A stretch of 42,736 bases of DNA from a virus. The stretch lies in the UHGV virus genome UHGV-0389216; one strand, written 5' to 3'. The notes under the pieces were generated by a model that made no database searches, was not told the origin of the DNA, and worked only from the letters and a program-made list of their open reading frames with translations. The position numbers and the translations under genes are program-made. The stretch's first letter is position 1. The number at the start of each line of letters is the position of its first letter. Below are positions 11,277 through 35,640 of the stretch, piece by piece.

Positions 11277-11334
11277 TATAAGTACTCGCTAATATTGAAC
11301 GATATATATATCAAATTATTATGAAACTCGTCAG

Positions 11335-11613: not shown

Positions 11614-11750
11614 GACTGTAATTATATACAGGTGATGGTCTTCAATTTCGAAGAGGGAGTCAAGGGGAGTCTCAAATGAACCGTTATAGAAAGGGGGGGA
11701 TCTTTGTGTTGCTGAACTTATGCAAAATTTTTCGCACCATAAATCCAACA

Positions 11751-11782
11751 ACACATTCAATAACACATTCAATAACACATTA
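11751..11782. repeat. tandem direct repeat, 12-bp unit ACACATTCAATA (2.7 copies)
   Basis: ACACATTCAATA ACACATTCAATA ACACATTA read directly, in the AT-rich region upstream of int. Confidence 0.7.
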
Positions 11783-12081
11783 CCGTATCATCATGAAAAT
11801 AAATATATTTTTATTTAATTTCACACATATCACAATTAATACAGCGTTTAGTAATTAGTAAAGACATTTCAATGGATTACCGTTAAATCATTTTAAAATC
11901 AGTAAGTTGTATCGAGTTTGTATGCTTTACTGTCATTAACTTACTGTATGTTGATCCAGTGTATTTAACCTTGATAAACTCAGTCCAGCAACACAAAACC
12001 GCAACACATTGCATTTTGTCCCGTAGAAAAGACTTGTATGTGTGAGCTTGTTTTCTGCGCCTACGCAGATAAGGATTGAGA

Positions 12082-13479
12082 ATGCCGCGCACTGTAACAC
12101 ATAATCCGGATAGCCCCAATAATGACGATGTTTTAGCCGCATCTGAAAAATGGGACGCCTGTAAACCCCCCTATACCAGCGCACACATGAAAATCTGTGT
12201 TGCTGCCGCCAAAATCATCCTCGCTGCTTCCGGCGTGGCTCGCCGTTCCAAATACGAAAAAGAGAACTATCTCCGTATCGATTTCAGCAAAGCCGGTAAG
12301 GTTACATTTTACGCCGAGTTTCCAAAAAAGATGGGCCTCAAGGGTAAAAAGCTCGGCGAGTGGCCGGAGCTCGCTATCCAGCTGGCGCGCGAAAAAGCGC
12401 TAGGTATGGCTGACTGTGGCCTGCGGGCAGAGTCCGTACATGCAGCGCTGGAAATGTACCGGGATGACCTCAAAGCCAAAGTCGCCCGGCAGAAGCTGAG
12501 CCCGGACAGTTTCACAACCTACGGGGTGCGTATCGACCGGATTAAAGCAACGTTCGGCGAGCGCGAGGTGTTCAGCGACGTAACATACAATCGGCTGGTG
12601 GAAGTGCTGGACGAGTGGATCGCTACTCGCTCGAACAATAACGCCCTGGAGTTGTTTGCCGAGCTCCGTCGGTTCTGGAAGTTCTGCGCACCTACTCTTT
12701 GCAACGGCCGCAATGTTGCCGCCAGTCTGCCAGATGATTATGTTTCCTCCCGCGTACAGAAACCTACCCCCACACGGCTTTTTACCGATATTGAATCAAT
12801 CGCCCGACTCTGGCTCAATGTTGCTGCCTGCACCTCTGTACACCAGAAGAATGCTGTTCGCTTCATGATCATCACTGGCGTTCGTCCGATTAATGTCCAT
12901 AACCTGCGCTGGGACTACGTTCACGAGGAGGCTGGTGAAATTGTTTATCCGGAAGGGGTTATCGGCATGCGAGGGGCTATGAAAACACAAAAGGCTTTCC
13001 GCCTGCCGATAACGCCTGAGATCCGGCGGATTATCGACGAGCAGAAAGCCTGGCGTGATTCAGTTCCTGAGTGCAACAGGGATTATGTATTTTTGCAGCC
13101 ACGTGATCCAATGCAGCCATTTTCAAAACGATCACTGGATAAGCTGGTGAAAACATACAGCCCGGACGGGGCTGTAAAAGGAATAAAACATGATGGGACT
13201 GTTAAAGGGAAAGACGGTGCATTTAATACGATGTGCCGTAAATTCCTTAAGAGCAATGTTATTGCCTTGATGAAGGAAAGAGGCTATTCCCGATCAGACC
13301 GAAGGGAAATCAGCCTCCTTTGCCTTCACCACTCCAGTAAGTCAGATGACCCGATGGCAGAACATTACGACTTTTCTGATGAGATTTTACAGGAAGAGAT
13401 TGCGTTAAAGCGCGAAGCTTTCGAGGCTCACGAGCGGAGCATACTTGCGCAGGTGGCATTGCTACGGCGGCGAGGTTAA
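12082..13479 (+). CDS. int: tyrosine-type site-specific integrase
   Basis: ATG 12082 preceded by AAGGA. Contains ...MIITGVRPINVHNLRW... and C-terminal ...LCLHHSSKSD...AEHY consistent with R/H/Y catalytic boxes; adjacent convergent AlpA/Xis-like gene. Confidence 0.7.
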   Translation: MPRTVTHNPDSPNNDDVLAASEKWDACKPPYTSAHMKICVAAAKIILAASGVARRSKYEKENYLRIDFSKAGKVTFYAEFPKKMGLKGKKLGEWPELAIQLAREKALGMADCGLRAESVHAALEMYRDDLKAKVARQKLSPDSFTTYGVRIDRIKATFGEREVFSDVTYNRLVEVLDEWIATRSNNNALELFAELRRFWKFCAPTLCNGRNVAASLPDDYVSSRVQKPTPTRLFTDIESIARLWLNVAACTSVHQKNAVRFMIITGVRPINVHNLRWDYVHEEAGEIVYPEGVIGMRGAMKTQKAFRLPITPEIRRIIDEQKAWRDSVPECNRDYVFLQPRDPMQPFSKRSLDKLVKTYSPDGAVKGIKHDGTVKGKDGAFNTMCRKFLKSNVIALMKERGYSRSDRREISLLCLHHSSKSDDPMAEHYDFSDEILQEEIALKREAFEAHERSILAQVALLRRRG

Positions 13480-13676
13480 TACCGGCTGCGACACTTTTGA
13501 ATAAAAGCATCGACATTGCGGCGCTCATAACGAACTACTTTTGCACTGAAACGAATTGGTGCCAGGATAGCCCGATGACGATGCTTAATATTCCACTCAC
13601 ATAGCGTTTTCTGTGTAATACCTAACTTTTGGCATACTTCATCCGGGGTGAGTAAATCGTCGGGTTTCTCGCTCAT
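13476..13676 (-). CDS. AlpA/Xis-family small DNA-binding protein (putative excisionase)
   Basis: 66 aa; ...LLTPDEVCQKLGITQKTLCEW... is a MerR/AlpA-like helix-turn-helix; last gene of early-left operon, abutting int. Confidence 0.65.
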   Translation of the reverse strand: MSEKPDDLLTPDEVCQKLGITQKTLCEWNIKHRHRAILAPIRFSAKVVRYERRNVDAFIQKCRSRY

Positions 13677-15067
13677 GCTATACCTCTCTTTTTCATGGCA
13701 TCGAGCAGGATGTCCTGCACTGTTCGTTTTGAGTTGCGCCGTTCCATCACCATTTCGTCCATAGTGTCGGCGGCGATAATGTGGTGAATGAACACCGGGC
13801 GGTTGTGTCCGGCCTGTATCTGCCTGGTGGGGCCGATACGTTCAATAATTTGCTGATATTGCTCCAGGTCCCACCAGTGTGAGAAAAATACCAGTATATT
13901 TCCGCCGTCCTGCATGTTCAGACCGTGGCCCGCGCTGGCTGGGTGTGCAAAGAGAACAGGAATCTTTCCGGAATTCCAGTCGCGCAGTGTCTGTGGATCC
14001 TGGTCGAGGTGACGACCGCGAGGGAATGCTTTAAGCAAGCGTTCAAGATCGTGTTTCCAGTGATAAGCAACCAGCACAGGTGCGCCAGCTGCTTCGGTCA
14101 GTATGCTGTCCAGCGCCTGCAGTTTGGTGTCATGCAGTTCTGACCAACTTCCGGTGTCGTCTGTGTATACTGCGCCACTGGCGATTTGCAGACACTTCAG
14201 TGTCTTTGCCGCGGCGTTCGGTGCTTCGATGCCTTCGCCATTCAGCTCGAGGAACATTTCCTTTTCCATTTCACGATACTGCTGACGGGCCTTCGGCGGC
14301 ATATCCACGCGGATTACGTTATGGATGGGGTCTTTGATATCGAACCAGTCGGCCGCATCCAGCGATAGGGTCACATCGGCTAACGCTCGCTGTATTTCAC
14401 CCTGTGAGTGAGCAAACGGCTCCAGTTTGGTCCAGCTCTGCCCCGGAAACTGTATCGAGTTGAACCAGCGTGAGGTAAACGCGCCGTAAGTGCGTCCGAG
14501 ACGTTGCCCCTGGTCCACAAACCACGCTTGTCCCCACAAATCTACCAGGCCGTTCGGTGCTGGCGTACCAGTGAGATTTATCCAGCGCCGGACATACTTA
14601 TGCGCCACTTTGCCCAGCGCCGCCGCGCGCTTACCACCACCTCGCAGCCGGAAGGATTTTAGCCGGGTGCTTTCATCTGGAATGACAGTACCGAACGGCC
14701 ATCGTTCTCCCAATTCCTCAACCAGCCAGACAAGGTTATCGTAGTTGATGGTGAACACGCTCGCGTTGCTGTTCGCCAGCGCTGCAGAGCGCGCTTTGGC
14801 GTTACCAACAATAGGCTGCACCTCGATATTGCGCAGATGCCCCCATTTTAGCGCTTCATCCGGCCATGTGCTTGCTGCAACGCGTAGCGGCGCGAGGACC
14901 AGTGCGGGGCGTGTTTCTGCCCCTGCCATAAAGAGATTTTCCAGCGCAGTGAGCGTTGCCACGGTTTTACCCATTCCCATACCTGCCCAGATGTTGCCGC
15001 GCAGGGTTTCGGTTTCGTGGTTGATAATGAGATCTTGGTAGGGGCGAGGTATATATTTTGGGGGCAT
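13673..15067 (-). CDS. SNF2/DEAD-like superfamily 2 helicase
   Basis: 464 aa; Walker A GMGMGKT, Walker B/DEAD-like VIPDESTRLK, C-terminal helicase motifs; coupled to downstream gene. Confidence 0.8.
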   Translation of the reverse strand: MPPKYIPRPYQDLIINHETETLRGNIWAGMGMGKTVATLTALENLFMAGAETRPALVLAPLRVAASTWPDEALKWGHLRNIEVQPIVGNAKARSAALANSNASVFTINYDNLVWLVEELGERWPFGTVIPDESTRLKSFRLRGGGKRAAALGKVAHKYVRRWINLTGTPAPNGLVDLWGQAWFVDQGQRLGRTYGAFTSRWFNSIQFPGQSWTKLEPFAHSQGEIQRALADVTLSLDAADWFDIKDPIHNVIRVDMPPKARQQYREMEKEMFLELNGEGIEAPNAAAKTLKCLQIASGAVYTDDTGSWSELHDTKLQALDSILTEAAGAPVLVAYHWKHDLERLLKAFPRGRHLDQDPQTLRDWNSGKIPVLFAHPASAGHGLNMQDGGNILVFFSHWWDLEQYQQIIERIGPTRQIQAGHNRPVFIHHIIAADTMDEMVMERRNSKRTVQDILLDAMKKRGIA

Positions 15068-15081
15068 ATAATATGGCTCCT

Positions 15082-15117
15082 AAACAACAAAAGGCCAATT
15101 TAGGCCTTTTGTTGTTT
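15082..15117. terminator. long perfect hairpin, probable terminator for the 305-aa accessory gene
   Basis: AAACAACAAAAGGCC-AATTTA-GGCCTTTTGTTGTTT, 15-bp stem with U-rich 3' arm on either strand. Confidence 0.5.
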
Positions 15118-15129
15118 TAAAAATGTTAT

Positions 15130-16047
15130 TTATAATAGTGCTGTTACTATTGCATCTTTAAAAATATTTTCTTCTTCATTTATTAAAGGTGATGACAGAT
15201 GAATAATTACTTCTTTTCCTGTCAATACTATTTGCTCGACTTGAAATCCTGCGTTGTGTAGTCTTTGGCGTAACTTTTCTAGTGCTGATTTTGATATACT
15301 AAATCCTTCACTCCTTATAGTATAACTGGCAACTCCATTTTTAATAATATCTACAGAGTTGTCAATTTCCTGCTGCGAGTAATTTTTCGGTGAGTCGAAA
15401 AATCTGGATTTTGTCGTTGCTGTTGCCCTAAGAGATATCAATAATGATTTGATATCTTTAATCTCAGATGCCAGATACTCAGTTTCTGATACTTCTTTCT
15501 GGTCTAGTTGTGCAACTTTGAAAGTGCCAAAATGTTTGAGGAATGTTGTGTATTCAGGATCAGTTACTGACTTTAAATATGTTTCTTTTATCTTGCTCGC
15601 AAGTCTTTCTTTGAATAAATTGATTGATTGGTATCTTAAATCCGAAGGGTACTCTAAATGTTCAATTGATGAAATGTCAAAGCTATAAGGAGTGCGCTCG
15701 TCCTTAATAATTACGGTCGGTTTGTCAAATGCGAGACGCATTCCTAATTCAAACATTACATTAGCGTTTCGAGCACTTATATCGCAAACAACTATGGGGT
15801 TTTCATAAAGATTTTGAACAATTCGTTTTTGTATTACTGCAACATCATCATCTGAACTTACCAAATTTGCCTTGAATCCGGCATCATTTGATGCTTCACA
15901 AATAATGTCATGAACATTTCTCCAATGTCCAGTGGGATAACCTTCTATGTCCGCAATTGGCATAATAATGCCGCATATATGAGGTGGCATATTTTTGTTG
16001 TCTTTTACATCATCTTGGTTTATTTCTTTCGTTTGTTGCTTAGCCAT
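15130..16047 (-). CDS. accessory protein with N-terminal Rossmann-like TIR/NDT-like domain and unknown C-terminal domain
   Basis: 305 aa. Residues about 20-140 show alternating hydrophobic strand/helix pattern with ...PIVVCDISARNANVMFELGMRLAFDKPTVII..., the NV-x-x-E-x-G motif class seen in nucleoside 2-deoxyribosyltransferase-like and TIR-like folds; AT-rich; hairpin terminator downstream. Confidence 0.45.
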   Translation of the reverse strand: MAKQQTKEINQDDVKDNKNMPPHICGIIMPIADIEGYPTGHWRNVHDIICEASNDAGFKANLVSSDDDVAVIQKRIVQNLYENPIVVCDISARNANVMFELGMRLAFDKPTVIIKDERTPYSFDISSIEHLEYPSDLRYQSINLFKERLASKIKETYLKSVTDPEYTTFLKHFGTFKVAQLDQKEVSETEYLASEIKDIKSLLISLRATATTKSRFFDSPKNYSQQEIDNSVDIIKNGVASYTIRSEGFSISKSALEKLRQRLHNAGFQVEQIVLTGKEVIIHLSSPLINEEENIFKDAIVTALL

Positions 16048-16062
16048 AGCTTACACAGACTC

Positions 16063-16347
16063 CTATTGTAATTTTTTGCCTAATATACATGAAAGCTCCT
16101 TACTATCCAGTACTACCACGGTAAAGCCCAGTTTTCGCAGACGTTCATGCTCGCGCAACTGATCAGGTCGTGGTGGTTTGCCTGGTGCTTTGCATTCGAC
16201 AAAGACGATGCGACCGCCGGGTAGCAGAACAATGCGATCTGGTACCGAGCGGAGACCGGGAGATACGAACTTAAAGGCAACCCCGCCAGCCTTTTTTACT
16301 TCAGCGACGAGGTGCTTTTCGATTAGGTTTTCACGTTCATAGGCCAT
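16063..16347 (-). CDS. VRR-NUC domain nuclease
   Basis: 94 aa with ...RIVFVECKAPGKPPRPDQLREHERLRKLGFTVVVL..., characteristic of VRR-NUC (PD-(D/E)XK) proteins. Confidence 0.7.
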   Translation of the reverse strand: MAYERENLIEKHLVAEVKKAGGVAFKFVSPGLRSVPDRIVLLPGGRIVFVECKAPGKPPRPDQLREHERLRKLGFTVVVLDSKELSCILGKKLQ

Positions 16348-16541
16348 TAGCTTTCGCCTTCCTGCTTTTTGCGTTTCTTCATGCAGATAGCGCAGTTCTC
16401 AGGATGGTCATGCCATTCGTCAATCCTGATACCTGTGAACATCCATTTTCCGCATAGTGATATGGCTTCCCCCGAATTAAAGAAATGTGCTTTTTTCGAC
16501 AGGGCGGGGAACCCCCAACCTTTATTATCGATATTAGACAT
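16347..16541 (-). CDS. small Cys/His-containing protein, function unknown
   Basis: 64 aa; stop overlaps VRR-NUC start (ATGA); AAGGAGGTGGACG precedes ATG 16541; C/H cluster WHDHPENCAIC. Confidence 0.4.
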   Translation of the reverse strand: MSNIDNKGWGFPALSKKAHFFNSGEAISLCGKWMFTGIRIDEWHDHPENCAICMKKRKKQEGES

Positions 16542-16730
16542 CGTCCACCTCCTTACGCTTTTCGCGCATGTTCTGCATCAGACAAAAATCAAACCGACGT
16601 TCGCTTTGGCCCAGACCTGCATCGCCCGGTCGTACCCGCTGGACTGTTCAAGGCGCAAAGCCTCCCGCGCAGTCCGGTAATAAAGCGGACTGTCCCGGTA
16701 TTTAAATGACATAGGGTTTTTATTCCCAAA

Positions 16731-16753
16731 TAAAAAACCCCGCAATGCAGGGT
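16731..16753 (-). terminator. rho-independent terminator (minus strand) after TIR-like gene
   Basis: Minus-strand CCCTGC-ATT-GCGGGG hairpin followed by TTTTTT. Confidence 0.55.
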
Positions 16754-16776
16754 TGTAATCAACAATAAGGGGGTAA

Positions 16777-17538
16777 TTACGAGGAAGCGTTAGCTATTTG
16801 AGCTTGTGTAAATTCGAAACCAGAATTTTGTAACCGTTGCACTAGACGAGGAACTGTTTCACGTACATGGTCGTTGAAATTCAGATACAAAATCCCGTTA
16901 GCATCAGAAGGCTGTTCTAGGTGCTGTTTCTGAAGGATTGCTACATTGCTGCGCCCTAAGGACGAAAGAAGCATACCCATCTCGAGTACAACGTTCTGTC
17001 TTGCGCGGGGTTGGATTTCTGCTTCACCGGCGCGCTTTGAGTATCCCATATCATCAGGTGTCAAAAGAACAATCCCGAAACGGGTAGCAGTTTGTCCTTG
17101 CCCAATTTCACGTTCAAGCTCTTCAATAATGGTGAGTCCAGTCCCTCCCGTATTCTGCAAAATGAAATGGTCTGGTAATCCAAGTTTATGAAGGATTAGC
17201 TCAAGTTGTTCCTTTGCAGTATGGTCATGGCCGTGAACAATGAATATCTTTTTGGGAAGCTCAGATGGCTGTTCTACGGCTAGTGGTGTTGCCGTGGGGG
17301 GCGTTCCTAAATGGGACATTATTGCAGTTTCAACATTGGGACGTTCTTGAGGGTTACCTTGAAACTGAATGGTCCGGGTGGTGTAAAGGTTAACAATTAC
17401 GCCATTCGTTAAACGATAGCAGTCATAAGTCTCACGCTGTTCGTGGGAAAAATTGGTGAACCCACACTCCCTCAAAAAGTCAGGAAAAGATTCTCTCGGG
17501 TATGGATAGGTGATCGGCATTTCAGTTAGTTCCTGCAT
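16777..17538 (-). CDS. TIR-like (Cap12/PycTIR-type) nucleotide-binding domain protein with unassigned N-terminal domain
   Basis: 253 aa; C-terminal domain KKIFIVHGHDH...GIVLLTPDD...RQNVVLEMGMLLSSLGRSNVAIL matches the TIR-like predicted nucleotide-binding fold signature as I recall it; N-terminal 85 aa unassigned. Confidence 0.5.
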   Translation of the reverse strand: MQELTEMPITYPYPRESFPDFLRECGFTNFSHEQRETYDCYRLTNGVIVNLYTTRTIQFQGNPQERPNVETAIMSHLGTPPTATPLAVEQPSELPKKIFIVHGHDHTAKEQLELILHKLGLPDHFILQNTGGTGLTIIEELEREIGQGQTATRFGIVLLTPDDMGYSKRAGEAEIQPRARQNVVLEMGMLLSSLGRSNVAILQKQHLEQPSDANGILYLNFNDHVRETVPRLVQRLQNSGFEFTQAQIANASS

Positions 17539-17602
17539 AAGTATTGTTCCTTTAATTTACTCGAATTCAGCATGTCGCCATAGCTCGATAAGGTGAGTTA
17601 TA

Positions 17603-19699
17603 TCAATCTTTTTTGTAGTGGTACGCCTCAAAGCCGCCAGCGTTCAGCGGAATATCGGGTGCCCATTCGGGGTTAGTGGAGAGAAGCGCGGAAAGCGCTT
17701 TATCGTTGAAATCTTCTGTGTCTGGTGCTTCGGTGATCACCTCGTCGTGTACCGTTAGCACAATGCTGTAACCGGCACCCTCGATCAGCGGCATGTTTCT
17801 GGCCAGAACGTCGCGGGCGGCCGCCTGGGTGACGTTCTCCACCAGCTTTCCGCCGTAGGTTTTGAGTCGTTGCCATTTACGCGAATAAGAGTTAACACCC
17901 ATGTAGGTGATATTCCCTTGTTCGATAACCGGAGACGGGTAGCATACAGCGCGTCCGGATGGTAGCTGTATGCGCAGCCACGCGCCATCACGTCGGATTT
18001 TAAGATAGCCGCAATACAATGTTTTTTGCGGTGTGGCGATTGCTGTGCGGACAGTGCGCTCCAGCTCGTACCAGAAATCGCAGGTCGCCGGGTGCGCCCT
18101 GCGCCACAGGCGCTTGAGCGAGTCACATGCGATGAATACACGCTCGGACAGGCCAAAGGTCGACTTACGCTTAACCGATTCGTCGTACCAGCTTTTTGCC
18201 TCGCGGATAACATCGCGGGGAATGTTTGGCAGTGCGGCGTTCGCCAGCTCGTCGAGATCGAGACCGTAAACCAGAGCAAAAGTGATGAAAGCCGATACAC
18301 CACCTCCATAACCCAGACCGAGTTCCATGACTTTACCGATCTGACGCATGTGTTTATCAACATCATCTGGTGCAATATCGAAAGCTTTTGCATACGCCAG
18401 TTTATATAAGTCCGGACCCGTTCCAGCGTCATACTCTCTGAATGCATTCAGTTTCCATTCTTCTCCCGCCAGCCATGCCAGCATACGGCCTTCAATGTTT
18501 GACAAGTCACTTACCACTAGTTTTTTGCCTGTTGGCGCGATAATGCAGCCACGTAACGCTGAACTGGTTAGTTCCATGATATTGTCAAACAGCAGGTCTG
18601 CACATCCGGCTTTCAGTGCTTCGATGCCTTCGTCTATTTGTTCCTGTTTTAGTGAAGGGCGGGGAAGGTTCTGGGGCTGGAATAGCCGTCCGGCCCAACG
18701 ACCGGTACGTGATGCCCCGCAGAACTGTAGCGTACCGCGTAAGCGCCCGTCGTGGCTTACGCCTTTCATCAGTGCCTTGTATTTACTGGTGCTGGTAGTA
18801 CTGGCTTGCAGGCGGATAGCCAGCAGTTCTTTCACGGCAGATGATAAATCGGGGTCGGCCATACGACGTTCCAGGGTACTGCGTTGCATGTCTGGTAGCT
18901 CCACACCGTAGGATTCAACGATGTGCTTAATCAACGCGTCCCGTTGTGTGGCTGCCTGCACTTCGCCATCAGTCATTTCCTGTGTACGCTTTGCCAGGCG
19001 CTTTTGCTCCTGGTCTACCGCTTCGATCGCAGCGCGCGCGAGTTGCATGTCCATGCAGACGCCCCGGTCGTTGATCTGCTGATCACGATGCCAGAGCGCC
19101 AGCTCTGTCCCCTGATAATTCCACTTCGGCAGACGTTTATAGACTTCGCGCATTGCTTCGATATCCAGTCCGGCGTAAGCAACAAAGCGCCGCCATTCTT
19201 CCGGATGGGTTTTACTGGTGGCCCGACGCAGTTTGCTGTTTTTCGGACGTGGCTTACAGAACAGCTGGATCAGCGCTTTACCTTCTTTGTCCTTCGCTTT
19301 GTCTTGCGGGACGCCTAGTACTTCGCAGAGTTCCCCCAGAGACCCCGGGAGACCGTGCGCCAGCGCCTGCACCATCGTGTCGCGCCAACGTTCGACTGGC
19401 GGTGCCAGTCGCGGCATTGCATAACGCAGAACGGTGCGGTCGAAGTGAGAGTTATGGAAATAAAGCAGGGTTTCAGGGTCTGCGATTGCTTCGTATAAGC
19501 CGTGTGGAATACCACCACCGGCAGTGATATCCCACACGTTTACTGGCCCGTCGTTGATAGCCCATGCGAAAAGCATCACTTCAACGCCTTCGGCATACGC
19601 ATGGGTACCGTTCGTAATAGGGATTTCGCAATAGGTTTCCAGGTCGCCCCAGAGAATACTTTGATGTTGTTTATTTGAGGGGACTATATTATTTTTCAT
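17603..19699 (-). CDS. family A DNA polymerase with 3'-5' exonuclease domain
   Basis: 698 aa; Exo [10 protein letters not shown]; Pol motif A DLSNIEGR, motif [17 protein letters not shown], motif C VHDEV. Confidence 0.85.
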
Positions 19700-19733
19700 A
19701 TGGGCAAACTAGCTAATAAAGTTGAGGAAAAAA

Positions 19734-19937
19734 ATGTCTGAATCTAAGTTCAAACCTGGAGACCGCGTACAACATCTTTCTGGTGGGCCTGTTCTTGTGG
19801 TTGTTAGCACAGGATATATTCCTGCAACAGCTTTTAATGGCGACTTCATTCGCGTAACTTGTGAATTTTGGGATGAATCTAAAAAAGCTTTCGTAAAACA
19901 GGATTTTGTTGAAACTTCTCTTGAAGATTACGAATAA
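19734..19937 (+). CDS. DUF2158/YodC-like small protein
   Basis: ATG 19734 preceded by GAGG; KPGDRVQHLSGGPVLVVVS motif; only plus-strand gene inside the minus-strand operon. Confidence 0.55.
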   Translation: MSESKFKPGDRVQHLSGGPVLVVVSTGYIPATAFNGDFIRVTCEFWDESKKAFVKQDFVETSLEDYE

Positions 19938-19954
19938 CTCATAACACAATCCTC

Positions 19955-19976
19955 AAAGCGCCCCTAAGGGCGCTTT
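19955..19976. terminator. bidirectional hairpin terminator
   Basis: AAAGCGCCC-CTAA-GGGCGCTTT perfect 9-bp stem between convergent gene ends. Confidence 0.55.
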
Positions 19977-19981
19977 GGCGT

Positions 19982-20530
19982 TTAAATCAGTGCTTCAGCA
20001 TCAGCACCTTCGCTGATATCGTCGAAATCGTCAGCGCTTGCCACTCCGCCGCCAGCGAATGCATCGCCGTCTCGCAGGAACTGGACTCCGCCGAGTGAGG
20101 CATTAATGCGTTTACCGAAATTATTGTCCTGTGCCCAGATATCGATAACGGCGTTTACATAGCACCCTGCATAGGGACGTCCATCAGCCTGAATTAGTGG
20201 CGAACGATCACGATCAAGAACAGCTGGGCGCGCTTTGTTAGCAGCATTCAGGAAGAAATTACCGGGAAAGCCTTCATACTCTGCTTTTTCATCACCATCA
20301 TGCAGGCACAGATTGAGTTTTTTCTCCAGCTGGTTATAAATGGACTCCCACTTCTCCCCCCATTTTTCCTTCGCTACCTGCTTCATAGCTTTACGGATTT
20401 CTTCCAGTTGTGGGTGTTTGGGAGACATTAAAAATACTGCGGAGAAACGCGGATCGCCTTCGCCGTTTACAGTTTTAGCTTCAAACAGAGACGGGAAGGC
20501 CAGACGAACATTGTTCAGCTTCAGTTTCAT
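19982..20530 (-). CDS. phage replication-module protein (DUF2815-like, possible ssDNA-binding)
   Basis: 182 aa with acidic C-terminal tail (DDFDDISEGADAEALI) as in SSB-like proteins; sits between polymerase and nuclease. Confidence 0.5.
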   Translation of the reverse strand: MKLKLNNVRLAFPSLFEAKTVNGEGDPRFSAVFLMSPKHPQLEEIRKAMKQVAKEKWGEKWESIYNQLEKKLNLCLHDGDEKAEYEGFPGNFFLNAANKARPAVLDRDRSPLIQADGRPYAGCYVNAVIDIWAQDNNFGKRINASLGGVQFLRDGDAFAGGGVASADDFDDISEGADAEALI

Positions 20531-20545
20531 GGGGATTTCCTTAAA

Positions 20546-21847
20546 TCAGATGAGGTCTGCGGTTAGTGTATCGTCGGATACGTCGTCGAAATCATTTACA
20601 GGGTTGATATTGAGTGCGGGGCGTGGGTCTGACTCGGGAACGATGGTGGGTTTACCATCAGCTCGTGTTATCAGTGCCTCGACTTTTGACCAACGGCGCG
20701 GACTGGCCTTTTTGATAAGTTTTTCGGCTTTTGTGGGGCTAATAAGTTTAAAGTCGAATACTTCTTCAGTTTTGTACCTGAACTGGTCCTTCAGAAGTGC
20801 GCGAGCTGCCTCTTCATCACTCCAGGCCCGGTTACCTTGTTTTCCTGTTACCAGTTTAAACCCCGGTACCGGATGTCCGGCATTGAGTTCATTGTGAACC
20901 CGGTCTCGTACTGCCTTTAGCCAGGATTCAATAAAGTCGGCCTGGCTATAGATCTCCGCAAGCTGCTCAATGGTTAACAGAGGTACACGTGCGCTGGCAT
21001 TGGTGATTATTTCGCTGACAGGCTTTGTCAGATCTTCAAAATCGCTGGCCGCTGTTTGTAAATGCTGCATTTTCTGGGCAGTGCAAATAGCTTTTGCTTT
21101 ACAGAAGCGGCACTGTTTTTCTCCAGGTATGAAGTTTTCCAGCGGTAGTGTCTCAATGCCTTCGCATTCAGCAATATTGAGAACAAGGATCGCACTGGTT
21201 GCGGCCTCCTGTGCCCGTTCACCGAACGCCTGGAGCTCTTCCACCGTCAGAGCCCACTCTGAAACGTGGTTAAGCCGCGGCTGGTGGATGAACAGGCGCA
21301 CCGTCTCGAAGTCGTACAGCATGCTGAATTGTTCGAGCGCACCCAGAGCATACAGTTGTAGTTGCTCATTTTGTTCTGCATCAATGCGGACGCCTTTGCC
21401 ATATTTCAGGTCGTGGATTTGTAATTCGTTACCCGCGATGATTATGCCGTCGGCAGTTCCGAAAGATTCTTCCACACCCGTTATATGTGAGAAATCAACA
21501 CGTTGTTCAACCAATAGTTCATTATTCTTTGCAAGAGTCCAGACCGTATCAACATACCGGCCGACGGCTTCGACCATTTCATCATCCACCTGTGGGCCAG
21601 ATGTATCATCAGGATTTTCGCGAAGGGGGTATGAGCCGAGAAACATAGAAACATTGCATCCGGCGTAGTGTTCCGGGTGGCTTTGCCTGTTTCGTAGAAC
21701 TTTTTCAGCAAGCGCGTGCGCTGCAGTGCCCTCGATTGCAAAAGTTGTTTCTTTATCCGGTTGTGTGGCCTCCAGCGCCAGACTTCCTGGGCAGCGCATC
21801 CATCGATGCGCTGATGATGGCGAAAGTTGTGCGTGAACGTCTGGCAT
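20546..21847 (-). CDS. PD-(D/E)XK Cas4/RecB-like nuclease (DUF2800-like)
   Basis: 433 aa; N-terminal [14 protein letters not shown]; ...IHDLKYGKG... nuclease core; C-terminal Cys cluster [12 protein letters not shown]. Confidence 0.65.
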
Positions 21848-21849
21848 GA

Positions 21850-22752
21850 TTAACCCTCCAGTGCTTTTTCAGCTAGGGTGATTACTTCAGCGAGATTTTC
21901 ATCCGTTACTTCACCAAGTTTCCTGGCTCCCTGTTTTTCCAGAATTGCAATAGCTTCTGCCCGGTAGCCCCCTTTTGCTAACTGGAGGATCAACCCTTCA
22001 GCTTGTTTGCGTAGTGCCGCGAAATCAATTGTATGGTCATCTTTTGCGTCATTATTCTGGCTGGAATTTGCTGCGTCTCTGCGTGCAAATTCTTCCTGCA
22101 GCTGAAGGTACTCAACACGGTTGATCTCGATATGGCCTTTTTTCAGCATCTCGTTCAACTTGCGTAAGGTGTGGAGTTCACTGGCTGCTGTGCCGGATAC
22201 ATTTTTGACGTAAAACGGCCCCGTGCGTTCTCCATCTTTGTTACTGGCCTTTTTCGGCTTAACTTCATCACGCCCATCCGCAGGTGCATCAAGTAGCTGC
22301 TCGGCAAAAGCACGTCGCTCGCCGATGGTTGGCAGGTCGTCCCAGAACTTAAGGATGTTACGGGACAGGTCCAGGAGAGCAGGTTTAAGCAGCGCCCTGG
22401 CTCGTTTGACGCCCTGCAATGCGCTGTCGAGAGCATCAATCTGAACTACTCGTTTATCGCCTTCAGCATCACGGTAGGCAACAGCACGTTGCAGCATGTC
22501 TTCTGTGATAGGGGTGGCTACCGGGTAGAAACCAGCCAGTGCGATAACGTCGCTGAACTCCAGATCATCCAGTGTCATTGCCGCTGACATATTTTCAGTT
22601 TCAGTTGCTGTATCCCGACATTCCTGCACTCGTGAAATCGTGTCAGGATGCATAACAATGCCTGATGCCATTGTGCAGATAAGACGTTCAAGCAGCGCAT
22701 TATGTTGTGCCAGAAGTTGATTATTAAGTTCTAGACTGGTTTCTAAACTCAT
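21850..22752 (-). CDS. hypothetical early-operon protein
   Basis: 300-aa ORF coupled to flanking genes; no family recognised. Confidence 0.45.
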
Positions 22753-22931
22753 ACTGTGGTCCTCGCTACAAGGAGAATGAAAGTGATGATCAGACCGAGC
22801 GCAGTGGCAACGGCCAGACCGGTCATCAAATCGAAGTTTTTACGGCGATAACGGAGAACATCGCGCCCCGTCAGTCGATGGATGTGTTCAGGTTTCATCG
22901 GTTGTATTCCTTTTTTCATATCGGGGAGCAC
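22749..22931 (-). CDS. small C-terminally membrane-anchored protein
   Basis: 60 aa; basic N-terminus, C-terminal helix LAVATALGLIITFILLV; first ORF of early-left operon. Confidence 0.35.
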   Translation of the reverse strand: MLPDMKKGIQPMKPEHIHRLTGRDVLRYRRKNFDLMTGLAVATALGLIITFILLVARTTV

Positions 22932-22956
22932 GCTGTTGCGAGTGCGCTTTCAGACA

Positions 22957-22984
22957 TAAAAAAGCCCGTCACTTGAGGCGGGCA
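22957..22984 (-). terminator. rho-independent terminator (minus strand), tL1-like position
   Basis: Minus-strand GCCCGCC...GGCGGGC hairpin followed by TTTTTT, between the zinc-ribbon gene and the early-left operon. Confidence 0.55.
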
Positions 22985-23014
22985 AAGACTACACACAGCA
23001 ATTACATGGATGAT

Positions 23015-23209
23015 TCAGTTGGTATTGTGCGTACGTGGTACCACAAGGTTGAAGCGGACACGCCAGTGCGTTGCAATGGTATGCAGGAAAGCACCACATC
23101 CAGGGCAGTGCTCATAACATTCGTTGATTTGGTATCGTTTTGGCTTTGGTGTCAGAAGCTGTGTTTGGCAAGCAGGGCATTCACCTTTGAGCGGTTTATA
23201 CGTTTTCAC
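23015..23209 (-). CDS. zinc-ribbon protein in the lambda N position
   Basis: 64 aa; CPAC...CYEHCPGC four-Cys ribbon; located between the CI-like gene and the terminator. Confidence 0.4.
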   Translation of the reverse strand: MKTYKPLKGECPACQTQLLTPKPKRYQINECYEHCPGCGAFLHTIATHWRVRFNLVVPRTHNTN

Positions 23210-23531
23210 GCCGTTTCCTCATTCAGTTCACTTTGGTGGTTCGGCGGCTTCGACTTGTATCAGTAGACAGTGCTTCGCCGCACCCCAAAGGGAACTTACT
23301 GACCCGTATTGCCGACATCCTGTCCCGCCACGGTCCCGACGCATGGTTTAGAGTCGCGCCGTTCGACTTGTGGCTAAAGATACAATTTGAGTTGTATTAT
23401 GTAAACCACAAATGTGGTATTTTGTGGGGTGTTAATACTACTTTATTGATATTTAAGTGAATTTAATTTGTAAGACTTTACAAATGGGGTAAGGGAGGCT
23501 GTTACACCTCCCGATATTTACGGTGGGAATA

Positions 23532-24155
23532 CTAACGTTTACGGCGGTAAATACGGTGTTCGATCATTACACCTATGATCTGTAAGTTCATATCTGCACT
23601 ACGAAAAATAGGGTAATCAGGATTTAGGGGGATTAATTCAAAGTCGTCGATGCCGATTCCTAATGGACGGTATTTTTTAAATGTAGCTTCGTGACCGTCG
23701 TTTTTGGCGACAACAAACTCCCCTGGTGCAGGACATAGATCAGGATCGATGATAACAATGTCTCCTTCTTTAAACTCTGGTTGCATGCTGTCGCCATCGA
23801 TACGTAATGCGAAGCATGTTTCTGGAATGTCAGAGTCTGCCAAAATATATTCAAATTCCCCTGTCAGATCTGTTATGTCTCTTGCTTCTGTAAGCTCTCC
23901 TGCCTGAACGTAACTTAATATAGGTATGCGTCTGGTACTTATCTCCGCGAGAGGCATAATATTTTTACCGTTCAGTAGCCAGTCTGGGCTACATTTCAAG
24001 GCCTTAGCCAGATCCAGAAGATTGCGTGGCTTTCTGGTTCGTCCACTTTCGATGGATTCTATGGATTGTTGGCTAACCCCTGCAGAATTCGCTACTTCCA
24101 CTTGAGTCATTCCTAATTCCAAACGACGTGCTTTAAAACGGGCTGCGAGAGACAT
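23532..24155 (-). CDS. CI-like repressor (HTH plus S24 LexA-like peptidase domain)
   Basis: ATG 24155 with AGGA upstream; HTH MTQVEVANSAGVSQQSIESIESG; peptidase motif RIDGDSMQPEF; divergent from Cro-like gene. Confidence 0.85.
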   Translation of the reverse strand: MSLAARFKARRLELGMTQVEVANSAGVSQQSIESIESGRTRKPRNLLDLAKALKCSPDWLLNGKNIMPLAEISTRRIPILSYVQAGELTEARDITDLTGEFEYILADSDIPETCFALRIDGDSMQPEFKEGDIVIIDPDLCPAPGEFVVAKNDGHEATFKKYRPLGIGIDDFELIPLNPDYPIFRSADMNLQIIGVMIEHRIYRRKR

Positions 24156-24178
24156 GGGATTAGTCCTTCTGGGTTGTA

Positions 24179-24256
24179 TTAATGTGTATCCCCACATTAA
24201 AAACAATTTTTGTTGTATTTGACAAACCTCGTTTGTTGTTGCTAAATACCACTAAA
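24179..24256. promoter_or_regulatory. operator palindrome plus PR-like promoter of the immunity switch
   Basis: Perfect inverted repeat TTAATGTG-N6-CACATTAA (24179-24200); TTGACA (24219-24224), 18-bp spacer, TAAATA (24243-24248), then Cro start. Confidence 0.5.
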
Positions 24257-24275
24257 ATTGTATGAGGTGAAAGCA

Positions 24276-24488
24276 ATGACCTTAGCGACCCGAGTAAAAG
24301 AACGACGTAAAGAACTCAAAATGACGCAAGTTACGTTGGCTGAGCTCACAGGAGTGAGCCAGCAGGCAATAAACAGAATTGAAAGTGGTGTTATTGCTCG
24401 GCCACGTTATCTTCTTGAAATGTCTATAGCATTGGATTGCGACCCTAATTGGCTGTTGTATGGCTCACAAAACGATAAAAAGGCTTAA
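24276..24488 (+). CDS. Cro-like HTH regulator
   Basis: ATG 24276 preceded by GAGGTG; HTH MTQVTLAELTGVSQQAINRIESG; 71 aa. Confidence 0.7.
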   Translation: MTLATRVKERRKELKMTQVTLAELTGVSQQAINRIESGVIARPRYLLEMSIALDCDPNWLLYGSQNDKKA

Positions 24489-26964: not shown

Positions 26965-27387
26965 ATGCGTAATATTCAACAGGTTTTAGAGCGCTGGGGT
27001 GGCTGGGCAGCGAGTGAAGGTGGTAGCGTCTACTTTCCTCCTGTTGCAGCTGGGTTTAAGAATCTGCTACCCGCGACGCACTCTGGAAGGCTGAAATGCA
27101 GTGACAATGACGGTCTTATCATCAACTCCGCTATGAGCTGCCTGAAGAAAAAAGATCCGTATCTGTGCACGCTCCTTGAGTGGCATTACGTCCAGGCCAT
27201 GCCCGTGCGGACGATGGGTGAGAAGCTCGGCGTATCTCACACCCACGTTCTGAAGAGGCTTCAGGCGGCAGAGGGATTTATTGACGGTTGCTTAGCCATG
27301 CTGGATGTGGTGCTCGAAATGGATCAGTCGGTTCAGTCAAAGCCTCAGGCTATCAGGACATTGCGTAGGAGCTGCTCGGCGGCATAA
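26965..27387 (+). CDS. late-gene antiterminator Q-like protein
   Basis: 140 aa starting MRNIQQVLERWGGWAASEGG, similar as I recall to Q-type antiterminator N-termini; upstream of the lysis cassette. Confidence 0.55.
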   Translation: MRNIQQVLERWGGWAASEGGSVYFPPVAAGFKNLLPATHSGRLKCSDNDGLIINSAMSCLKKKDPYLCTLLEWHYVQAMPVRTMGEKLGVSHTHVLKRLQAAEGFIDGCLAMLDVVLEMDQSVQSKPQAIRTLRRSCSAA

Positions 27388-30168: not shown

Positions 30169-30170
30169 GT

Positions 30171-33884: not shown

Positions 33885-33898
33885 ATCGCAGGTAACAC

Positions 33899-35119: not shown

Positions 35120-35122
35120 AAA

Positions 35123-35629: not shown

Positions 35630-35640
35630 GGAACAGACGA

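What the first reader, a model, noticed from the sequence alone, without database searches (positions are those of the whole stretch)
13673..22931. Self-contained replisome/recombination module in a lambdoid-regulated phage
Instead of lambda O/P, the phage encodes a family A DNA polymerase with proofreading domain, primase-helicase, SNF2-like helicase, VRR-NUC nuclease, a Cas4-like nuclease with a Cys cluster, and an acidic-tailed SSB-like protein, in one leftward operon. The combination with lambda-type lysis and Q and Mu-like morphogenesis illustrates extreme mosaicism, and autonomy from the host replisome may help evade host-encoded replication-targeting defences.
Basis: partly seen in the sequence, partly recalled or inferred. 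Interest (0 to 1): 0.4.

Follow-up and report, generated by a model that had tools for sequence, protein, structure and literature searches.

The report
Known phage replication module with defence cargo

Summary
The primase-helicase is not in the leftward operon or inside the given coordinates. It lies at 24492-26684 on the + strand, directly after cro. The leftward operon encodes a DUF2800 Cas4-like nuclease, an Enc34/T7 gp2.5-type SSB, a family A polymerase with exonuclease motifs, VRR-NUC and an SNF2 helicase.

This is the Enc34/Jersey/Chi-type replication module. Polymerase and nuclease homologues occur in about 1,650-1,700 of 50,697 phage records, with gene order matching Serratia phage Scapp and Salmonella phage Jersey. 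Three deposited E. coli phage records are 98.6-98.7% identical, and 161 of 5,426 complete E. coli genomes carry the backbone.

Here they hold a TIR-like protein (PADLOC candidate PDC-S35) and a 34%-GC, 305-aa protein with a TIR/nucleoside-deoxyribosyltransferase-like domain and no Pfam family. Each is followed by a terminator-like hairpin. Sibling prophages carry BstA, a SIR2 candidate (PDC-S25), methyltransferases or Nmad5 in the same slots.

"Self-contained" overstates it: I recognised no clamp, ligase or 5'-nuclease. "Mu-like morphogenesis" is not supported for the head genes. The idea that autonomy evades defences is untested. Interest is low.

The parts
23377..23418 (-). Leftward early promoter and operator region (PL/OL-like)
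   Evidence: The 37-nt block 23382-23418 is repeated at 24203-24239 next to cro (70% identity) and contains the palindromes ACAAnnnnnnTTGT and ACCACAnnTGTGGT. A -35/-10-like site lies at 23405-23377 on the - strand. Function is inferred.
23015..23209 (-). First gene of the leftward transcript: a 64-aa zinc-ribbon protein of unknown role
   Evidence: ORF list. CPAC...CPGC motifs are visible in the sequence. Weak Pfam zinc-ribbon hits: zf-IS66 1.4e-5 and Zn_ribbon_TFIIB 1.3e-3, both below cutoff.
22957..22983 (-). Terminator-like hairpin plus U-run between the first small gene and the replication genes
   Evidence: GCCCGCC-loop-GACGGGC followed by UUUUUUA. The energy is -9.8 kcal/mol with z -1.1, so this is weak evidence.
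22749..22931 (-). Small protein, 49-60 aa depending on the start codon, with a hydrophobic C-terminal segment
   Evidence: PHROG 11981 3e-36 over residues 12-60. RefSeq siblings annotate a 150-nt gene here. Function unknown.
21850..22752 (-). 300-aa backbone protein of unknown function
   Evidence: PHROG 6784 3.1e-179. No Pfam, NCBIfam, PADLOC or PDB match. 588 homologues were found; every named source among the 120 listed is Enterobacteriaceae.
20546..21847 (-). DUF2800 / PD-(D/E)XK Cas4-like nuclease with a 4-Cys cluster and an acidic tail
   Evidence: Pfam DUF2800 2.5e-110, PDDEXK_1 1.5e-10 and PHROG 69 exonuclease 3.9e-136. Cysteines at C19, C246, C249 and C255; D-x-K at 146-148. The tail is ...[16 protein letters not shown].
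19982..20530 (-). [quoted passage not shown]
   Evidence: Pfam PF10991 2.4e-44, PHROG 112 2.4e-56, PDB 4jg2 1.1e-16 and 5odj 4.2e-16. The tail is ...ADDFDDISEGADAEALI.
19659..19981 (.). Cargo slot A (SSB | polymerase): empty here except a low-GC remnant and a strong hairpin at about 19944-19977
   Evidence: The similarity breakpoints 19658 and 19982 recur in 9 sibling loci. Hairpin energy is -19.9 kcal/mol, z -3.8. Siblings carry SIR2/PDC-S25, Nmad5, HNH, AntA, BRO-N or a reverse-strand ORF here.
17603..19699 (-). Family A DNA polymerase with a 3'-5' exonuclease domain and no 5'-nuclease domain
   Evidence: PHROG 17 4.8e-127, Pfam DNA_pol_A 2.5e-14 and PDB Pol I hits covering motifs A and B. 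All exonuclease and polymerase motifs are present.
16777..17538 (-). Cargo slot B gene: TIR-like protein (PADLOC candidate PDC-S35) with a small N-terminal domain
   Evidence: Pfam CAP12-PCTIR_TIR 2.9e-31 and PADLOC PDC-S35 1.3e-108. The Cap12 alignment keeps the glutamate motif QNVVLEMG, E186. Foldseek top hit is Cap12 TIR-STING at 1.6e-5. The N-terminal domain gives weak RnlA_toxin hits in 11 of 40 members, best 8.5e-4.
16736..16754 (-). Intrinsic-terminator-like hairpin directly after the TIR-like gene
   Evidence: An 8-bp stem with 5 GC pairs followed by UUUUUUAUUU. Energy is -11.3 kcal/mol, z -2.1.
16578..16765 (-). Remnant of an ANR-family regulator gene (frameshifted)
   Evidence: RefSeq annotates the homologous stretch in strain Rb-50 as a frameshifted ANR-family regulator. 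Positions 16599-16715 align to intact ANR genes in siblings at 84-85%.
16347..16541 (-). 64-aa Cys/His-rich small protein upstream of VRR-NUC
   Evidence: PHROG 2358 2.6e-25. A small hypothetical gene also precedes the endonuclease gene in Scapp; I did not test whether the two are homologous.
16063..16347 (-). VRR-NUC nuclease
   Evidence: PHROG 93 3.4e-31. Pfam VRR_NUC 2.1e-3 is below cutoff. D37 and E52-x-K54 are present.
15130..16047 (-). Cargo slot C gene: 305-aa, 34%-GC protein with a TIR/nucleoside-deoxyribosyltransferase-like N-domain and a variable C-domain
15077..15122 (-). Strong hairpin between the 305-aa gene and the SNF2 gene
   Evidence: Energy is -23.5 kcal/mol, z -5.6, with none of 200 shuffles as stable.
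13673..15067 (-). SNF2-family helicase
   Evidence: Pfam SNF2-rel_dom 3.8e-12 and PHROG 62 2.3e-157. Walker A GMGKT at 31 and DEST at 131.
13476..13676 (-). Excisionase-like HTH protein, the last gene of the leftward operon
   Evidence: Pfam HTH_17 1.3e-5 (below cutoff), PHROG 4745 4e-27 and PHROG 66 excisionase 9.8e-6.
12082..13479 (+). Tyrosine integrase, convergent with the operon
   Evidence: Pfam Phage_integrase 3.9e-7 and PHROG 1 2.2e-26. RefSeq siblings annotate a 465-aa integrase.
23532..24206 (-). CI-type repressor (HTH plus S24 peptidase)
   Evidence: Pfam Peptidase_S24 2.3e-21 and HTH_3 1.2e-12.
24258..24488 (+). Cro-type regulator
   Evidence: Pfam HTH_3 2.1e-14.
24492..26684 (+). 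Primase-helicase (Prim-Pol AEP domain plus VapE/D5-type helicase), the missing component of the module
   Evidence: Pfam VapE-like 2.3e-60. Prim-Pol PF09250 3e-10 on residues 53-185. PHROG 1156 primase 4e-40 and PHROG 256 helicase 1.8e-146. PDB 7pds 8e-34. Walker A GPQGCGKS at 484.
26965..27387 (+). Q-type antiterminator
   Evidence: Pfam Phage_antitermQ 7.9e-42.

Best explanation
The region is an intact Enc34/Jersey/Chi-type phage replication-recombination module in a temperate E. coli myovirus with CI/Cro/Q control. The module is split over the two divergent early operons.

**Rightward operon:** cro is followed directly by a Prim-Pol + VapE primase-helicase, in the position where lambda has O/P.

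**Leftward operon, in order:** a small zinc-ribbon gene and a hairpin, a small membrane protein, a 300-aa protein of unknown function, a DUF2800 Cas4-like exonuclease, a T7 gp2.5-type SSB, a proofreading family A polymerase, VRR-NUC, an SNF2 helicase, and an excisionase-like gene.

**Likely mechanism (inferred by analogy with T7).** The primase-helicase unwinds and primes. The polymerase copies both strands without a clamp. The SSB coats single-stranded DNA and recruits partners through its acidic tail. The nuclease together with the annealing-capable SSB, VRR-NUC and SNF2 process ends, forks and junctions for recombination-dependent replication and concatemer resolution. Host ligase, topoisomerases and primer-removal enzymes are still needed.

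**Cargo slots.** Three backbone junctions (SSB|polymerase, polymerase|VRR-NUC, VRR-NUC|SNF2) are recurrent insertion slots. In this window two of them carry terminator-flanked accessory genes with TIR-like glycosidase cores. These are most likely prophage-borne anti-phage or exclusion genes rather than replication factors.
For: **Shown**
- Family assignments and intact catalytic motifs for every component.
- The same gene order in Serratia phage Scapp, including the divergent regulator plus primase and an annotated terminator between SSB and polymerase, and in Salmonella phage Jersey.
- The polymerase is found in 1,697 phage records and the DUF2800 nuclease in 1,654, with near-identical genus counts (Salmonella 451/452, Escherichia 259/260, Streptococcus 130/130, Bacteroides 105/105). 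This indicates co-inheritance.
- The Enc34 module is described in the literature, and its DUF2815 protein has been shown to be a T7-type SSB (PMC5686142).
- The backbone is at 95-99% nucleotide identity in 161 of 5,426 complete E. coli genomes.
- Breakpoints recur at 15053/15072, 16100, 16347, 17602/17615, 19658 and 19982.
- Slot contents differ between siblings and include BstA at 2.5e-110 and SIR2/PDC-S25 at 3.9e-157.
- This TIR-like allele is in only 37 genomes and the 305-aa gene in only 24.
- Hairpins follow both cargo genes.
- The cargo genes have lower GC than the 49-55% of the five named backbone replication genes: 34% for the 305-aa gene, and 45% for the TIR-like gene, a value that two backbone ORFs share (xis-like 44%, 64-aa ORF 45%).

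**Inferred**
- The division of labour at the fork.
- The defence role of the cargo genes.
Against: - There is no experimental evidence for this phage lineage, and I found no paper on it.
- I recognised no processivity factor, so bulk synthesis by the phage polymerase is an assumption.
- The 300-aa and small backbone proteins are unexplained.
- The defence reading of the cargo rests on association and domain type. PDC-S35 and PDC-S25 are only candidates in PADLOC.
- The cargo genes sit in a lytic-phase operon, and no convincing promoter of their own was found. Expression in lysogens is therefore unshown.
Confidence: 0.8

Rival explanations
1. The module does not replace the host replisome. The phage polymerase, nucleases and SNF2 helicase serve initiation, repair and recombination, while host Pol III holoenzyme carries out bulk synthesis.
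For: I recognised no clamp, clamp loader or other processivity factor in the window. The gene set is rich in recombination-type nucleases.
Against: The polymerase keeps all proofreading and polymerase motifs. It travels with a primase-helicase and an SSB in about 1,650 phages, including virulent ones such as the Jersey and Chi groups. T7 shows that a family A polymerase, primase-helicase and gp2.5-type SSB can form a replisome (established knowledge).
Confidence: 0.2
2. The two TIR/deoxyribosyltransferase-like proteins are nucleotide-metabolism enzymes that serve the phage's own replication rather than defence. For example, they could be N-glycosidases acting on nucleotides or modified bases.
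Against: Both genes are present in only 15-23% of prophages that share the backbone. The 305-aa gene is split or IS1-disrupted in some copies. Homologues occur outside replication modules: in a Vibrio island, an e14-like prophage and a Pseudomonas integrative element. PDC-S35 was defined from defence-island association (PADLOC). The hypervariable C-domain resembles a specificity or sensor module.
Confidence: 0.2
3. The cargo genes are counter-defence factors used by the phage during lytic growth, for example to destroy or sequester host immune signals or cofactors.
For: The genes are co-oriented in the early lytic operon, and no promoter of their own was detected. Methyltransferases and Nmad5 in the sibling slots are plausibly anti-restriction cargo.
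Against: The TIR domain keeps the Cap12-type catalytic glutamate typical of NADase effectors. Siblings carry BstA and SIR2-type proteins in the same slots. Among phage records, 305-aa homologues are found in only 20, none from a classic virulent coliphage group and several from prophage collections.
Confidence: 0.12
4. One reading: the phage carries its own replisome mainly to escape host defences that target host-dependent replication.
For: None from these analyses. It is a general evolutionary argument.
Against: Phage-encoded T7-type SSB directly activates Retron-Eco8 (PMC13402713), so phage replication proteins are themselves sensed. The module is ancient and is spread across phages of Gram-positive and Gram-negative hosts, which fits vertical inheritance of a replication strategy better than a recent evasion trait.
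Confidence: 0.1

Closest known systems
Enc34 / Chi / Jersey / K1-ind / Scapp-type phage replication module
   Same: The same protein families in the same order: DUF2800 nuclease, DUF2815 SSB, family A polymerase, small protein, VRR-NUC, variable genes, SNF2 helicase. A large primase-helicase sits beside a transcription regulator (PMC5686142).
   Different: Here the module is in a temperate myovirus under CI/Cro/Q control with an integrase. The closest polymerase outside the lineage, in Scapp, is only 45% identical. The upstream 300-aa protein is known only from enterobacterial relatives. The slots hold TIR-like cargo.
Bacteriophage T7 replisome (gp5, gp4, gp2.5, with gp6 and gp3 nucleases)
   Same: A family A proofreading polymerase, a fused primase-helicase, a gp2.5-fold SSB with an acidic tail, and an exonuclease plus a junction nuclease (PMC5686142).
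   Different: The primase-helicase is Prim-Pol (AEP) plus an SF3 VapE/D5 type, not TOPRIM plus SF4. The nucleases belong to other families. There is an additional SNF2 helicase. Thioredoxin dependence was not tested.
Accessory-gene and defence hotspots of prophages (lambdoid morons, P2/P4 hotspots, BstA loci)
   Same: Fixed junctions in a conserved backbone hold interchangeable genes that are often terminator-flanked and differ in GC. These include validated BstA and SIR2/TIR candidates. Knowledge of the named hotspot systems is my own, not tested here.
   Different: The slots lie inside the replication operon between essential-looking replication genes, not at the genome ends or next to the repressor.
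Cap12 / PycTIR effector TIR domains (PF10137)
   Same: The 253-aa protein has this domain above the gathering score, and the conserved glutamate motif aligns.
   Different: There is no STING, SAVED or cyclic-nucleotide-binding sensor, and no cyclase gene nearby. Instead it has an 80-aa N-terminal alpha/beta domain that is weakly RnlA-N/RNase HIII-N-like.
Cas4 / AddB-type Fe-S PD-(D/E)XK nucleases
   Same: A PD-(D/E)XK core and the C...CxxCx5C cysteine pattern.
   Different: There is no CRISPR context. The best family is DUF2800, and PADLOC Cas4 scores only 3.1e-3. It is Cas4-like, not Cas4.

Membership tests
Enc34/Jersey-type phage replication module | DUF2815 (T7 gp2.5-fold) SSB with an acidic C-tail | tested here: met
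   PF10991 2.4e-44, PDB 5odj 4.2e-16, and 7 acidic residues in the last 25.
Enc34/Jersey-type phage replication module | DUF2800 PD-(D/E)XK nuclease immediately upstream of the SSB | tested here: met
   PF10926 2.5e-110, with a 15-nt gap to the SSB gene. The order is the same in Scapp and Jersey.
Enc34/Jersey-type phage replication module | Family A polymerase with a 3'-5' exonuclease domain downstream of the SSB | tested here: met
   PHROG 17 4.8e-127. Motifs Exo I-III and Pol A-C are present. The Pfam exonuclease domain is below cutoff at 17.3 against 23.6 bits.
Enc34/Jersey-type phage replication module | VRR-NUC nuclease and SNF2 helicase distal to the polymerase | tested here: met
   PHROG 93 3.4e-31, SNF2-rel_dom 3.8e-12 and PHROG 62 2.3e-157.
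Enc34/Jersey-type phage replication module | Large primase or primase-helicase encoded nearby beside a transcription regulator | tested here: met
   Prim-Pol plus VapE at 24492-26684, directly after cro. Scapp has a repressor-like gene followed by a primase, divergent from the module.
Lambdoid regulatory architecture | Divergent CI (HTH + S24) and Cro with repeated operator sets left and right, plus a late antiterminator Q | tested here: met
   Q PF06530 7.9e-42.
Lambdoid regulatory architecture | N-type early antiterminator acting at terminators in the early operons | tested here: inconclusive
   Terminator-like hairpins lie in the leftward operon. No N homologue was recognised. The first leftward gene is a zinc-ribbon protein of unknown role.
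Lambda O/P-type replication | Origin-binding O and DnaB-loader P genes after cro | tested here: not met
   The gene after cro is the Prim-Pol/VapE protein, followed by a 92-aa ORF on the opposite strand that I did not assign to a family, then Q.
Cas4 | RecB-like PD-(D/E)XK nuclease with a 4-Cys Fe-S cluster | tested here: met
   PDDEXK_1 1.5e-10, with C19, C246, C249 and C255. Metal-cluster binding cannot be tested here.
Cas4 | Association with CRISPR-cas adaptation genes | tested here: not met
   No cas genes among the ORFs of the window. I did not run a repeat search over the whole window, so CRISPR arrays were not looked for directly.
Cap12/Pycsar-type TIR effectors | PF10137 TIR domain with the conserved catalytic glutamate | tested here: met
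   108.4 bits against a cutoff of 24.7. E186 in QNVVLEMG aligns to NVVFEFG of Cap12 and is invariant in 40 homologues.
Cap12/Pycsar-type TIR effectors | Cyclic-nucleotide sensor domain and a partner cyclase gene | tested here: not met
   The N-terminal domain is a different small fold. The neighbouring genes are the polymerase and VRR-NUC.
PADLOC candidate system PDC-S35 | Full-length match to the PDC-S35 profile | tested here: met
   1.3e-108 over residues 10-253. Anti-phage activity of the candidate system cannot be tested here, and I found no paper on it.
Mu-like head morphogenesis | Mu-type portal, Mu F-like and Mu gpT-type capsid families | tested here: not met
   The head genes hit Phage_portal_3, DUF2213, PF09950, XM1 gp53 and DUF3383 instead. 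The tail and baseplate were not examined.

The most novel reading that the evidence does not exclude
The 305-aa protein (15130-16047) may represent a large family with no curated Pfam, NCBIfam or PADLOC family match above threshold and only 'hypothetical' or stray 'RNA helicase' names in its sources. At least 4,466 sequence clusters were found, on prophages and integrative elements. It would be a single-gene anti-phage system, with a TIR/nucleoside-deoxyribosyltransferase-like N-glycosidase core fused to a hypervariable C-terminal specificity domain. More generally, the junctions inside this replication operon would act as a defence and counter-defence exchange hotspot in about 3% of E. coli genomes.
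Probability: 0.4. Interest if true: 0.5.

Novelty: new member of a known kind. Interest (0 to 1): 0.25.

Why it matters
As a replication module it adds little. The type is described, is very common in phages, and near-identical E. coli phage genomes are already deposited with polymerase and helicase annotated.

The practical value lies in two points. First, the record is corrected: the module is split over two operons, is not self-sufficient, and the head genes are not Mu-like. Second, three fixed junctions in a conserved backbone present in 161 complete E. coli genomes act as a natural library of swappable accessory genes. That library includes validated BstA, the candidates PDC-S25 and PDC-S35, and a large TIR/NDT-like family with no curated family assignment. 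These give cheap, well-controlled candidates for defence screens, because the backbones are isogenic and only the cargo differs.

Tried and rejected
- **300-aa backbone protein:** Pfam at E up to 5 and PDB phmmer at E up to 10 gave nothing. Its homologues are too similar to build a useful profile.
- **N-terminal domain of the TIR-like protein:** Foldseek against PDB gave only marginal hits, IntS9/11 CTD at 1e-2 and RNase H3 at 2.5e-2. The RnlA-N/RNase HIII-N similarity therefore stays a weak sequence hint.
- **AlphaFold database fold library:** it was unavailable.
- **Non-coding RNA:** Rfam and tRNA scans of the whole window found nothing.
- **Promoters:** the scan found no more sites than in shuffled sequence (13 against 13.8). 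No convincing promoter precedes the TIR-like gene.
- **Literature:** searches for PDC-S35, for the sibling phage names and for the RefSeq protein accessions returned no papers.
- **Primase-helicase inside the stated interval:** considered and rejected. No ORF there matches a primase or a replicative helicase other than SNF2.
- **Chance ORFs:** I considered that the cargo genes might be chance ORFs and rejected it. They have 2,700 and 4,466 homologues with strongly conserved cores.

Full report
**1. What is in the interval**

The - strand of 13476-23209 carries a tightly packed gene string. Gaps are -4 to +15 nt, except at the three cargo junctions (62, 235 plus 64, and 282 nt) and at the 116-nt gap that holds the hairpin after the first small gene. 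Read in the direction of transcription, the genes are:

| Coordinates | Product | Evidence |
|---|---|---|
| 23015-23209 | 64-aa zinc-ribbon protein | |
| 22749-22898/22931 | Small protein with a hydrophobic segment, PHROG 11981 | |
| 21850-22752 | 300-aa protein, PHROG 6784, no other match | |
| 20546-21847 | DUF2800/PD-(D/E)XK nuclease, 2.5e-110 | |
| 19982-20530 | Enc34-type SSB, 2.4e-44; PDB 5odj 4.2e-16 | |
| 17603-19699 | Family A polymerase, PHROG 17 4.8e-127 | |
| 16777-17538 | TIR-like protein, PF10137 2.9e-31 | |
| 16578-16765 | Frameshifted ANR-regulator remnant | |
| 16347-16541 | 64-aa Cys/His-rich protein, PHROG 2358 | |
| 16063-16347 | VRR-NUC, PHROG 93 3.4e-31 | |
| 15130-16047 | 305-aa protein at 34% GC | |
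| 13673-15067 | SNF2 helicase, PHROG 62 2.3e-157 | |
| 13476-13676 | Excisionase-like HTH protein | |

A 465-aa tyrosine integrase at 12082-13479 converges on the operon.

**2.

- The cysteine cluster of the nuclease is real: C19 plus C246-x2-C249-x5-C255.
- The SSB tail is acidic.
- The polymerase has Exo I (D19xE21), Exo II (N83...D87) and Exo III (Y175...D179). It also has motif A (D398 in SDLSNIEGR), motif B (R452...K456...Y464) and motif C (H651-D-E).
- The polymerase has no 5'-nuclease domain.
No ORF in 13673-22931 matches a primase.
- The only primase-helicase is the 730-aa product of 24492-26684 on the + strand, four bases after cro. It combines Prim-Pol PF09250 (3e-10, residues 53-185), VapE PF05272 (2.3e-60), PHROG primase and helicase families, and PDB 7pds (8e-34).

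Five of six components are in place. One lies outside the coordinates in the other early operon, and several genes went unmentioned.

**3. Regulation**

- CI (HTH plus S24 peptidase, 23532-24206) and Cro (24258-24488) are divergent.
- A 37-nt operator-containing block next to cro (24203-24239) is repeated at 23382-23418. That copy overlaps a -35/-10-like site pointing leftward.
- Q is at 26965-27387, and the holin is lambda S-type.

"Lambdoid-regulated" is therefore fair.

The leftward transcript has to pass several hairpins:

| Location | Energy and z-score | Note |
|---|---|---|
| After the zinc-ribbon gene | -9.8 kcal/mol, z -1.1 | Weak |
| After the SSB gene | -19.9 kcal/mol, z -3.8 | Scapp annotates a terminator at the same junction |
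| After the TIR-like gene | -11.3 kcal/mol, z -2.1 | Canonical stem plus U-tract |
| After the 305-aa gene | -23.5 kcal/mol, z -5.6 | Strongest |

No N homologue was recognised.

**4. What the module is**

- The polymerase has homologues in 1,697 of 50,697 phage records and the DUF2800 nuclease in 1,654. Their genus distributions are almost identical, so the genes travel together.
- Serratia phage Scapp shows the same layout. A repressor-like gene plus primase is divergent from two hypothetical genes, DUF2800, DUF2815, a terminator, the polymerase, a small protein, an endonuclease, variable genes and the helicase.
- Salmonella phage Jersey has the same order, with a Dcm methylase between VRR-NUC and the helicase.
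- The Enc34 paper describes the module as primase, transcription factor, polymerase, VRR-NUC, helicase and hypothetical proteins. It shows that the DUF2815 protein is a T7 gp2.5-like SSB whose acidic tail is expected to contact other replication proteins (PMC5686142). PMC7996906 describes a related cluster in a phage with a family B polymerase.
- Three deposited E. coli phage records are 98.6-98.7% identical over 96-97% of the region and already annotate polymerase, helicase, nuclease and a TIR-like protein.

The kind is known.

**5. Likely mechanism**

By composition this follows the logic of a T7-type minimal replisome. It has a family A proofreading polymerase, a fused primase-helicase and a gp2.5-fold SSB, together with end- and junction-processing enzymes (Cas4-like exonuclease, VRR-NUC, SNF2 translocase). 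This comparison uses established knowledge of T7. The roles in this phage are inferred.

The primase-helicase belongs to a different class (AEP plus SF3) from T7 gp4.

I noticed that the nuclease and the SSB end in nearly the same peptide: [16 protein letters not shown] and DDFDDISEGADAEALI. This is conserved in a Klebsiella sibling and is different in Scapp and Jersey. It suggests that both proteins dock on the same partner (inference).

I recognised no clamp, ligase, flap nuclease, RNase H or topoisomerase, so "self-contained" is too strong.

**6. The cargo slots**

Megablast of 13400-23500 against 5,426 complete E. coli genomes finds the backbone in 161, at 95-99% identity. Only 38 of these cover at least 80% of the query.

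Pairwise BLAST against ten sibling loci shows four conserved blocks with recurrent breakpoints: 13300-15053/72, 16100-16347, 17602/15-19658 and 19982-23011. Three variable junctions lie between them.

| Slot | Position | This window | Sibling prophages |
|---|---|---|---|
| A | SSB \| polymerase | 323 bp of low-GC remnant | A 493-aa SIR2 protein, Nmad5 plus a reverse-strand ORF, HNH, AntA or BRO-N genes |
| B | polymerase \| VRR-NUC | The TIR-like gene | ANR plus DUF4406, a SAM methyltransferase, Ant, or YfbU |
| C | VRR-NUC \| SNF2 | The 305-aa gene | Dcm, Dcm plus a reverse-strand gene annotated as PI-PLC, Rha plus Arc genes, or reverse-strand hypothetical genes |

PADLOC identifies the gene annotated as PI-PLC as BstA (2.5e-110) and the SIR2 protein as candidate PDC-S25 (3.9e-157). 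From my own knowledge, BstA is an experimentally validated prophage abortive-infection protein.

This TIR-like allele occurs in 37 genomes and the 305-aa gene in 24. One of those copies is IS1-disrupted, and the copy in phage 606R2 is split. The junctions therefore behave as accessory-gene hotspots holding a mix of defence, counter-defence and regulatory cargo.

**7. The two cargo genes here**

*The 253-aa protein.*
- It matches PADLOC PDC-S35 over its full length (1.3e-108).
- It has 2,700 homologues.
- It keeps the invariant motifs VHGHD and RARQNVVLEMG. The glutamate of the second motif aligns with the Cap12 TIR motif NVVFEFG.
- The model's best PDB match is Cap12 TIR-STING.
- Its N-terminal 80 residues form a confidently predicted alpha-beta4-alpha domain with pLDDT about 90. 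That domain has only weak RnlA_toxin and RNase HIII-N hits.
- A 71%-identical homologue sits in the same slot of other E. coli prophages. A 52-55%-identical one (one search gives 55, the alignment gives 52) sits in a Vibrio cholerae integrative island.

*The 305-aa protein.*
- No Pfam family scores above cutoff.
- It has 4,466 homologues, with a very conserved residue 25-195 core and a variable C-terminal third.
- Weak sequence links: PADLOC TIR effector 1.1e-6, PF10137 0.011 and Nuc_deoxyrib_tr 0.1.
- A profile-profile comparison aligns its NVMFELGM...EHLEYPSD with NVVLEMGM...QHLEQPSD of the PDC-S35 family (E 1.6e-4, probability 50%).
- Homologues occupy the same slot in Klebsiella prophages, an e14-like element in Enterobacter and an integrative element in Pseudomonas.
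- Among phage records it occurs in only 20, none from a classic virulent coliphage group and several from prophage collections.

I read both as prophage accessory genes, probably abortive-infection or exclusion effectors. A metabolic N-glycosidase role and a counter-defence role are not excluded. Expression in lysogens is unshown.

**8.

- The head genes hit Phage_portal_3, DUF2213, PF09950, XM1 gp53 and DUF3383, not Mu families.
- The evasion hypothesis cannot be tested here. It is weakened by the finding that a T7-type SSB directly triggers Retron-Eco8 (PMC13402713).

**9. Verdict**

The feature is real and well conserved, and it is ordinary as a replication module. It is a new member of a known kind, in a lineage already deposited but apparently not described in a paper.

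The modest added value is the hotspot architecture and a large TIR/NDT-like family with no curated family assignment in one of the slots.

Noticed in passing
It has a PF10137 domain and a full-length match to PADLOC candidate PDC-S35, and is followed by a canonical terminator at 16754-16736.
   Followed up: yes
window 15130-16047 (-): A 305-aa gene at 34% GC with no Pfam family. It belongs to a family of at least 4,466 clusters with an invariant TIR/NDT-like core and a hypervariable C-terminal domain. It lies in the slot where sibling prophages carry Dcm, alone or with BstA.
   Followed up: yes
window 20546-20593 and 19982-20029 (C-terminal codons of the nuclease and the SSB): The nuclease and the SSB end in nearly the same acidic peptide, DFDD[VI]S..A[DE]LI. 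It is conserved in a Klebsiella sibling and is different in Scapp and Jersey, which suggests a shared docking partner.
   Followed up: partly
window 21850-22752 (-): A 300-aa backbone protein with no match in Pfam, NCBIfam, PADLOC or PDB. 588 homologues were found; every named source among the 120 listed is Enterobacteriaceae. Function unknown.
   Followed up: partly
window 7540-11800: An accessory region lies between the tail-fibre genes and the integrase. It holds an acyltransferase (PF01757), an IS110-family transposase and two low-GC ORFs (10629-11276, 11335-11778) with no informative family.
   Followed up: no
window 23015-23209 (-) and 22957-22983: The first gene after the leftward promoter is a 64-aa zinc-ribbon protein followed by a hairpin plus U-run. 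This is where lambda has N and tL1, but no N homologue was recognised.
   Followed up: partly
L027 (E. coli VL7S7) 5710-8544: In this sibling the polymerase gene is 2,835 nt, against about 2,070-2,100 nt elsewhere. This is probably an intein or another insertion, as annotated for the intein-containing polymerase of Salmonella phage LP31.
   Followed up: no
window 29596-39832: The head and sheath genes hit Phage_portal_3, DUF2213, PF09950, XM1 gp53 and DUF3383 families rather than Mu-type families.
   Followed up: partly
L028 (E. coli L6-21) and L002 (ON470579.1) ends: Sibling prophages sit between yfhL and the tadA/pgpC/yfhH region. The deposited 'phage' records 606R2, 611R5 and 689R2 begin or end at the SNF2 helicase gene inside the prophage, and 606R2 also includes host genes (tadA, pgpC, yfhH). 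They therefore look like prophage-region predictions rather than packaged genomes.
   Followed up: no
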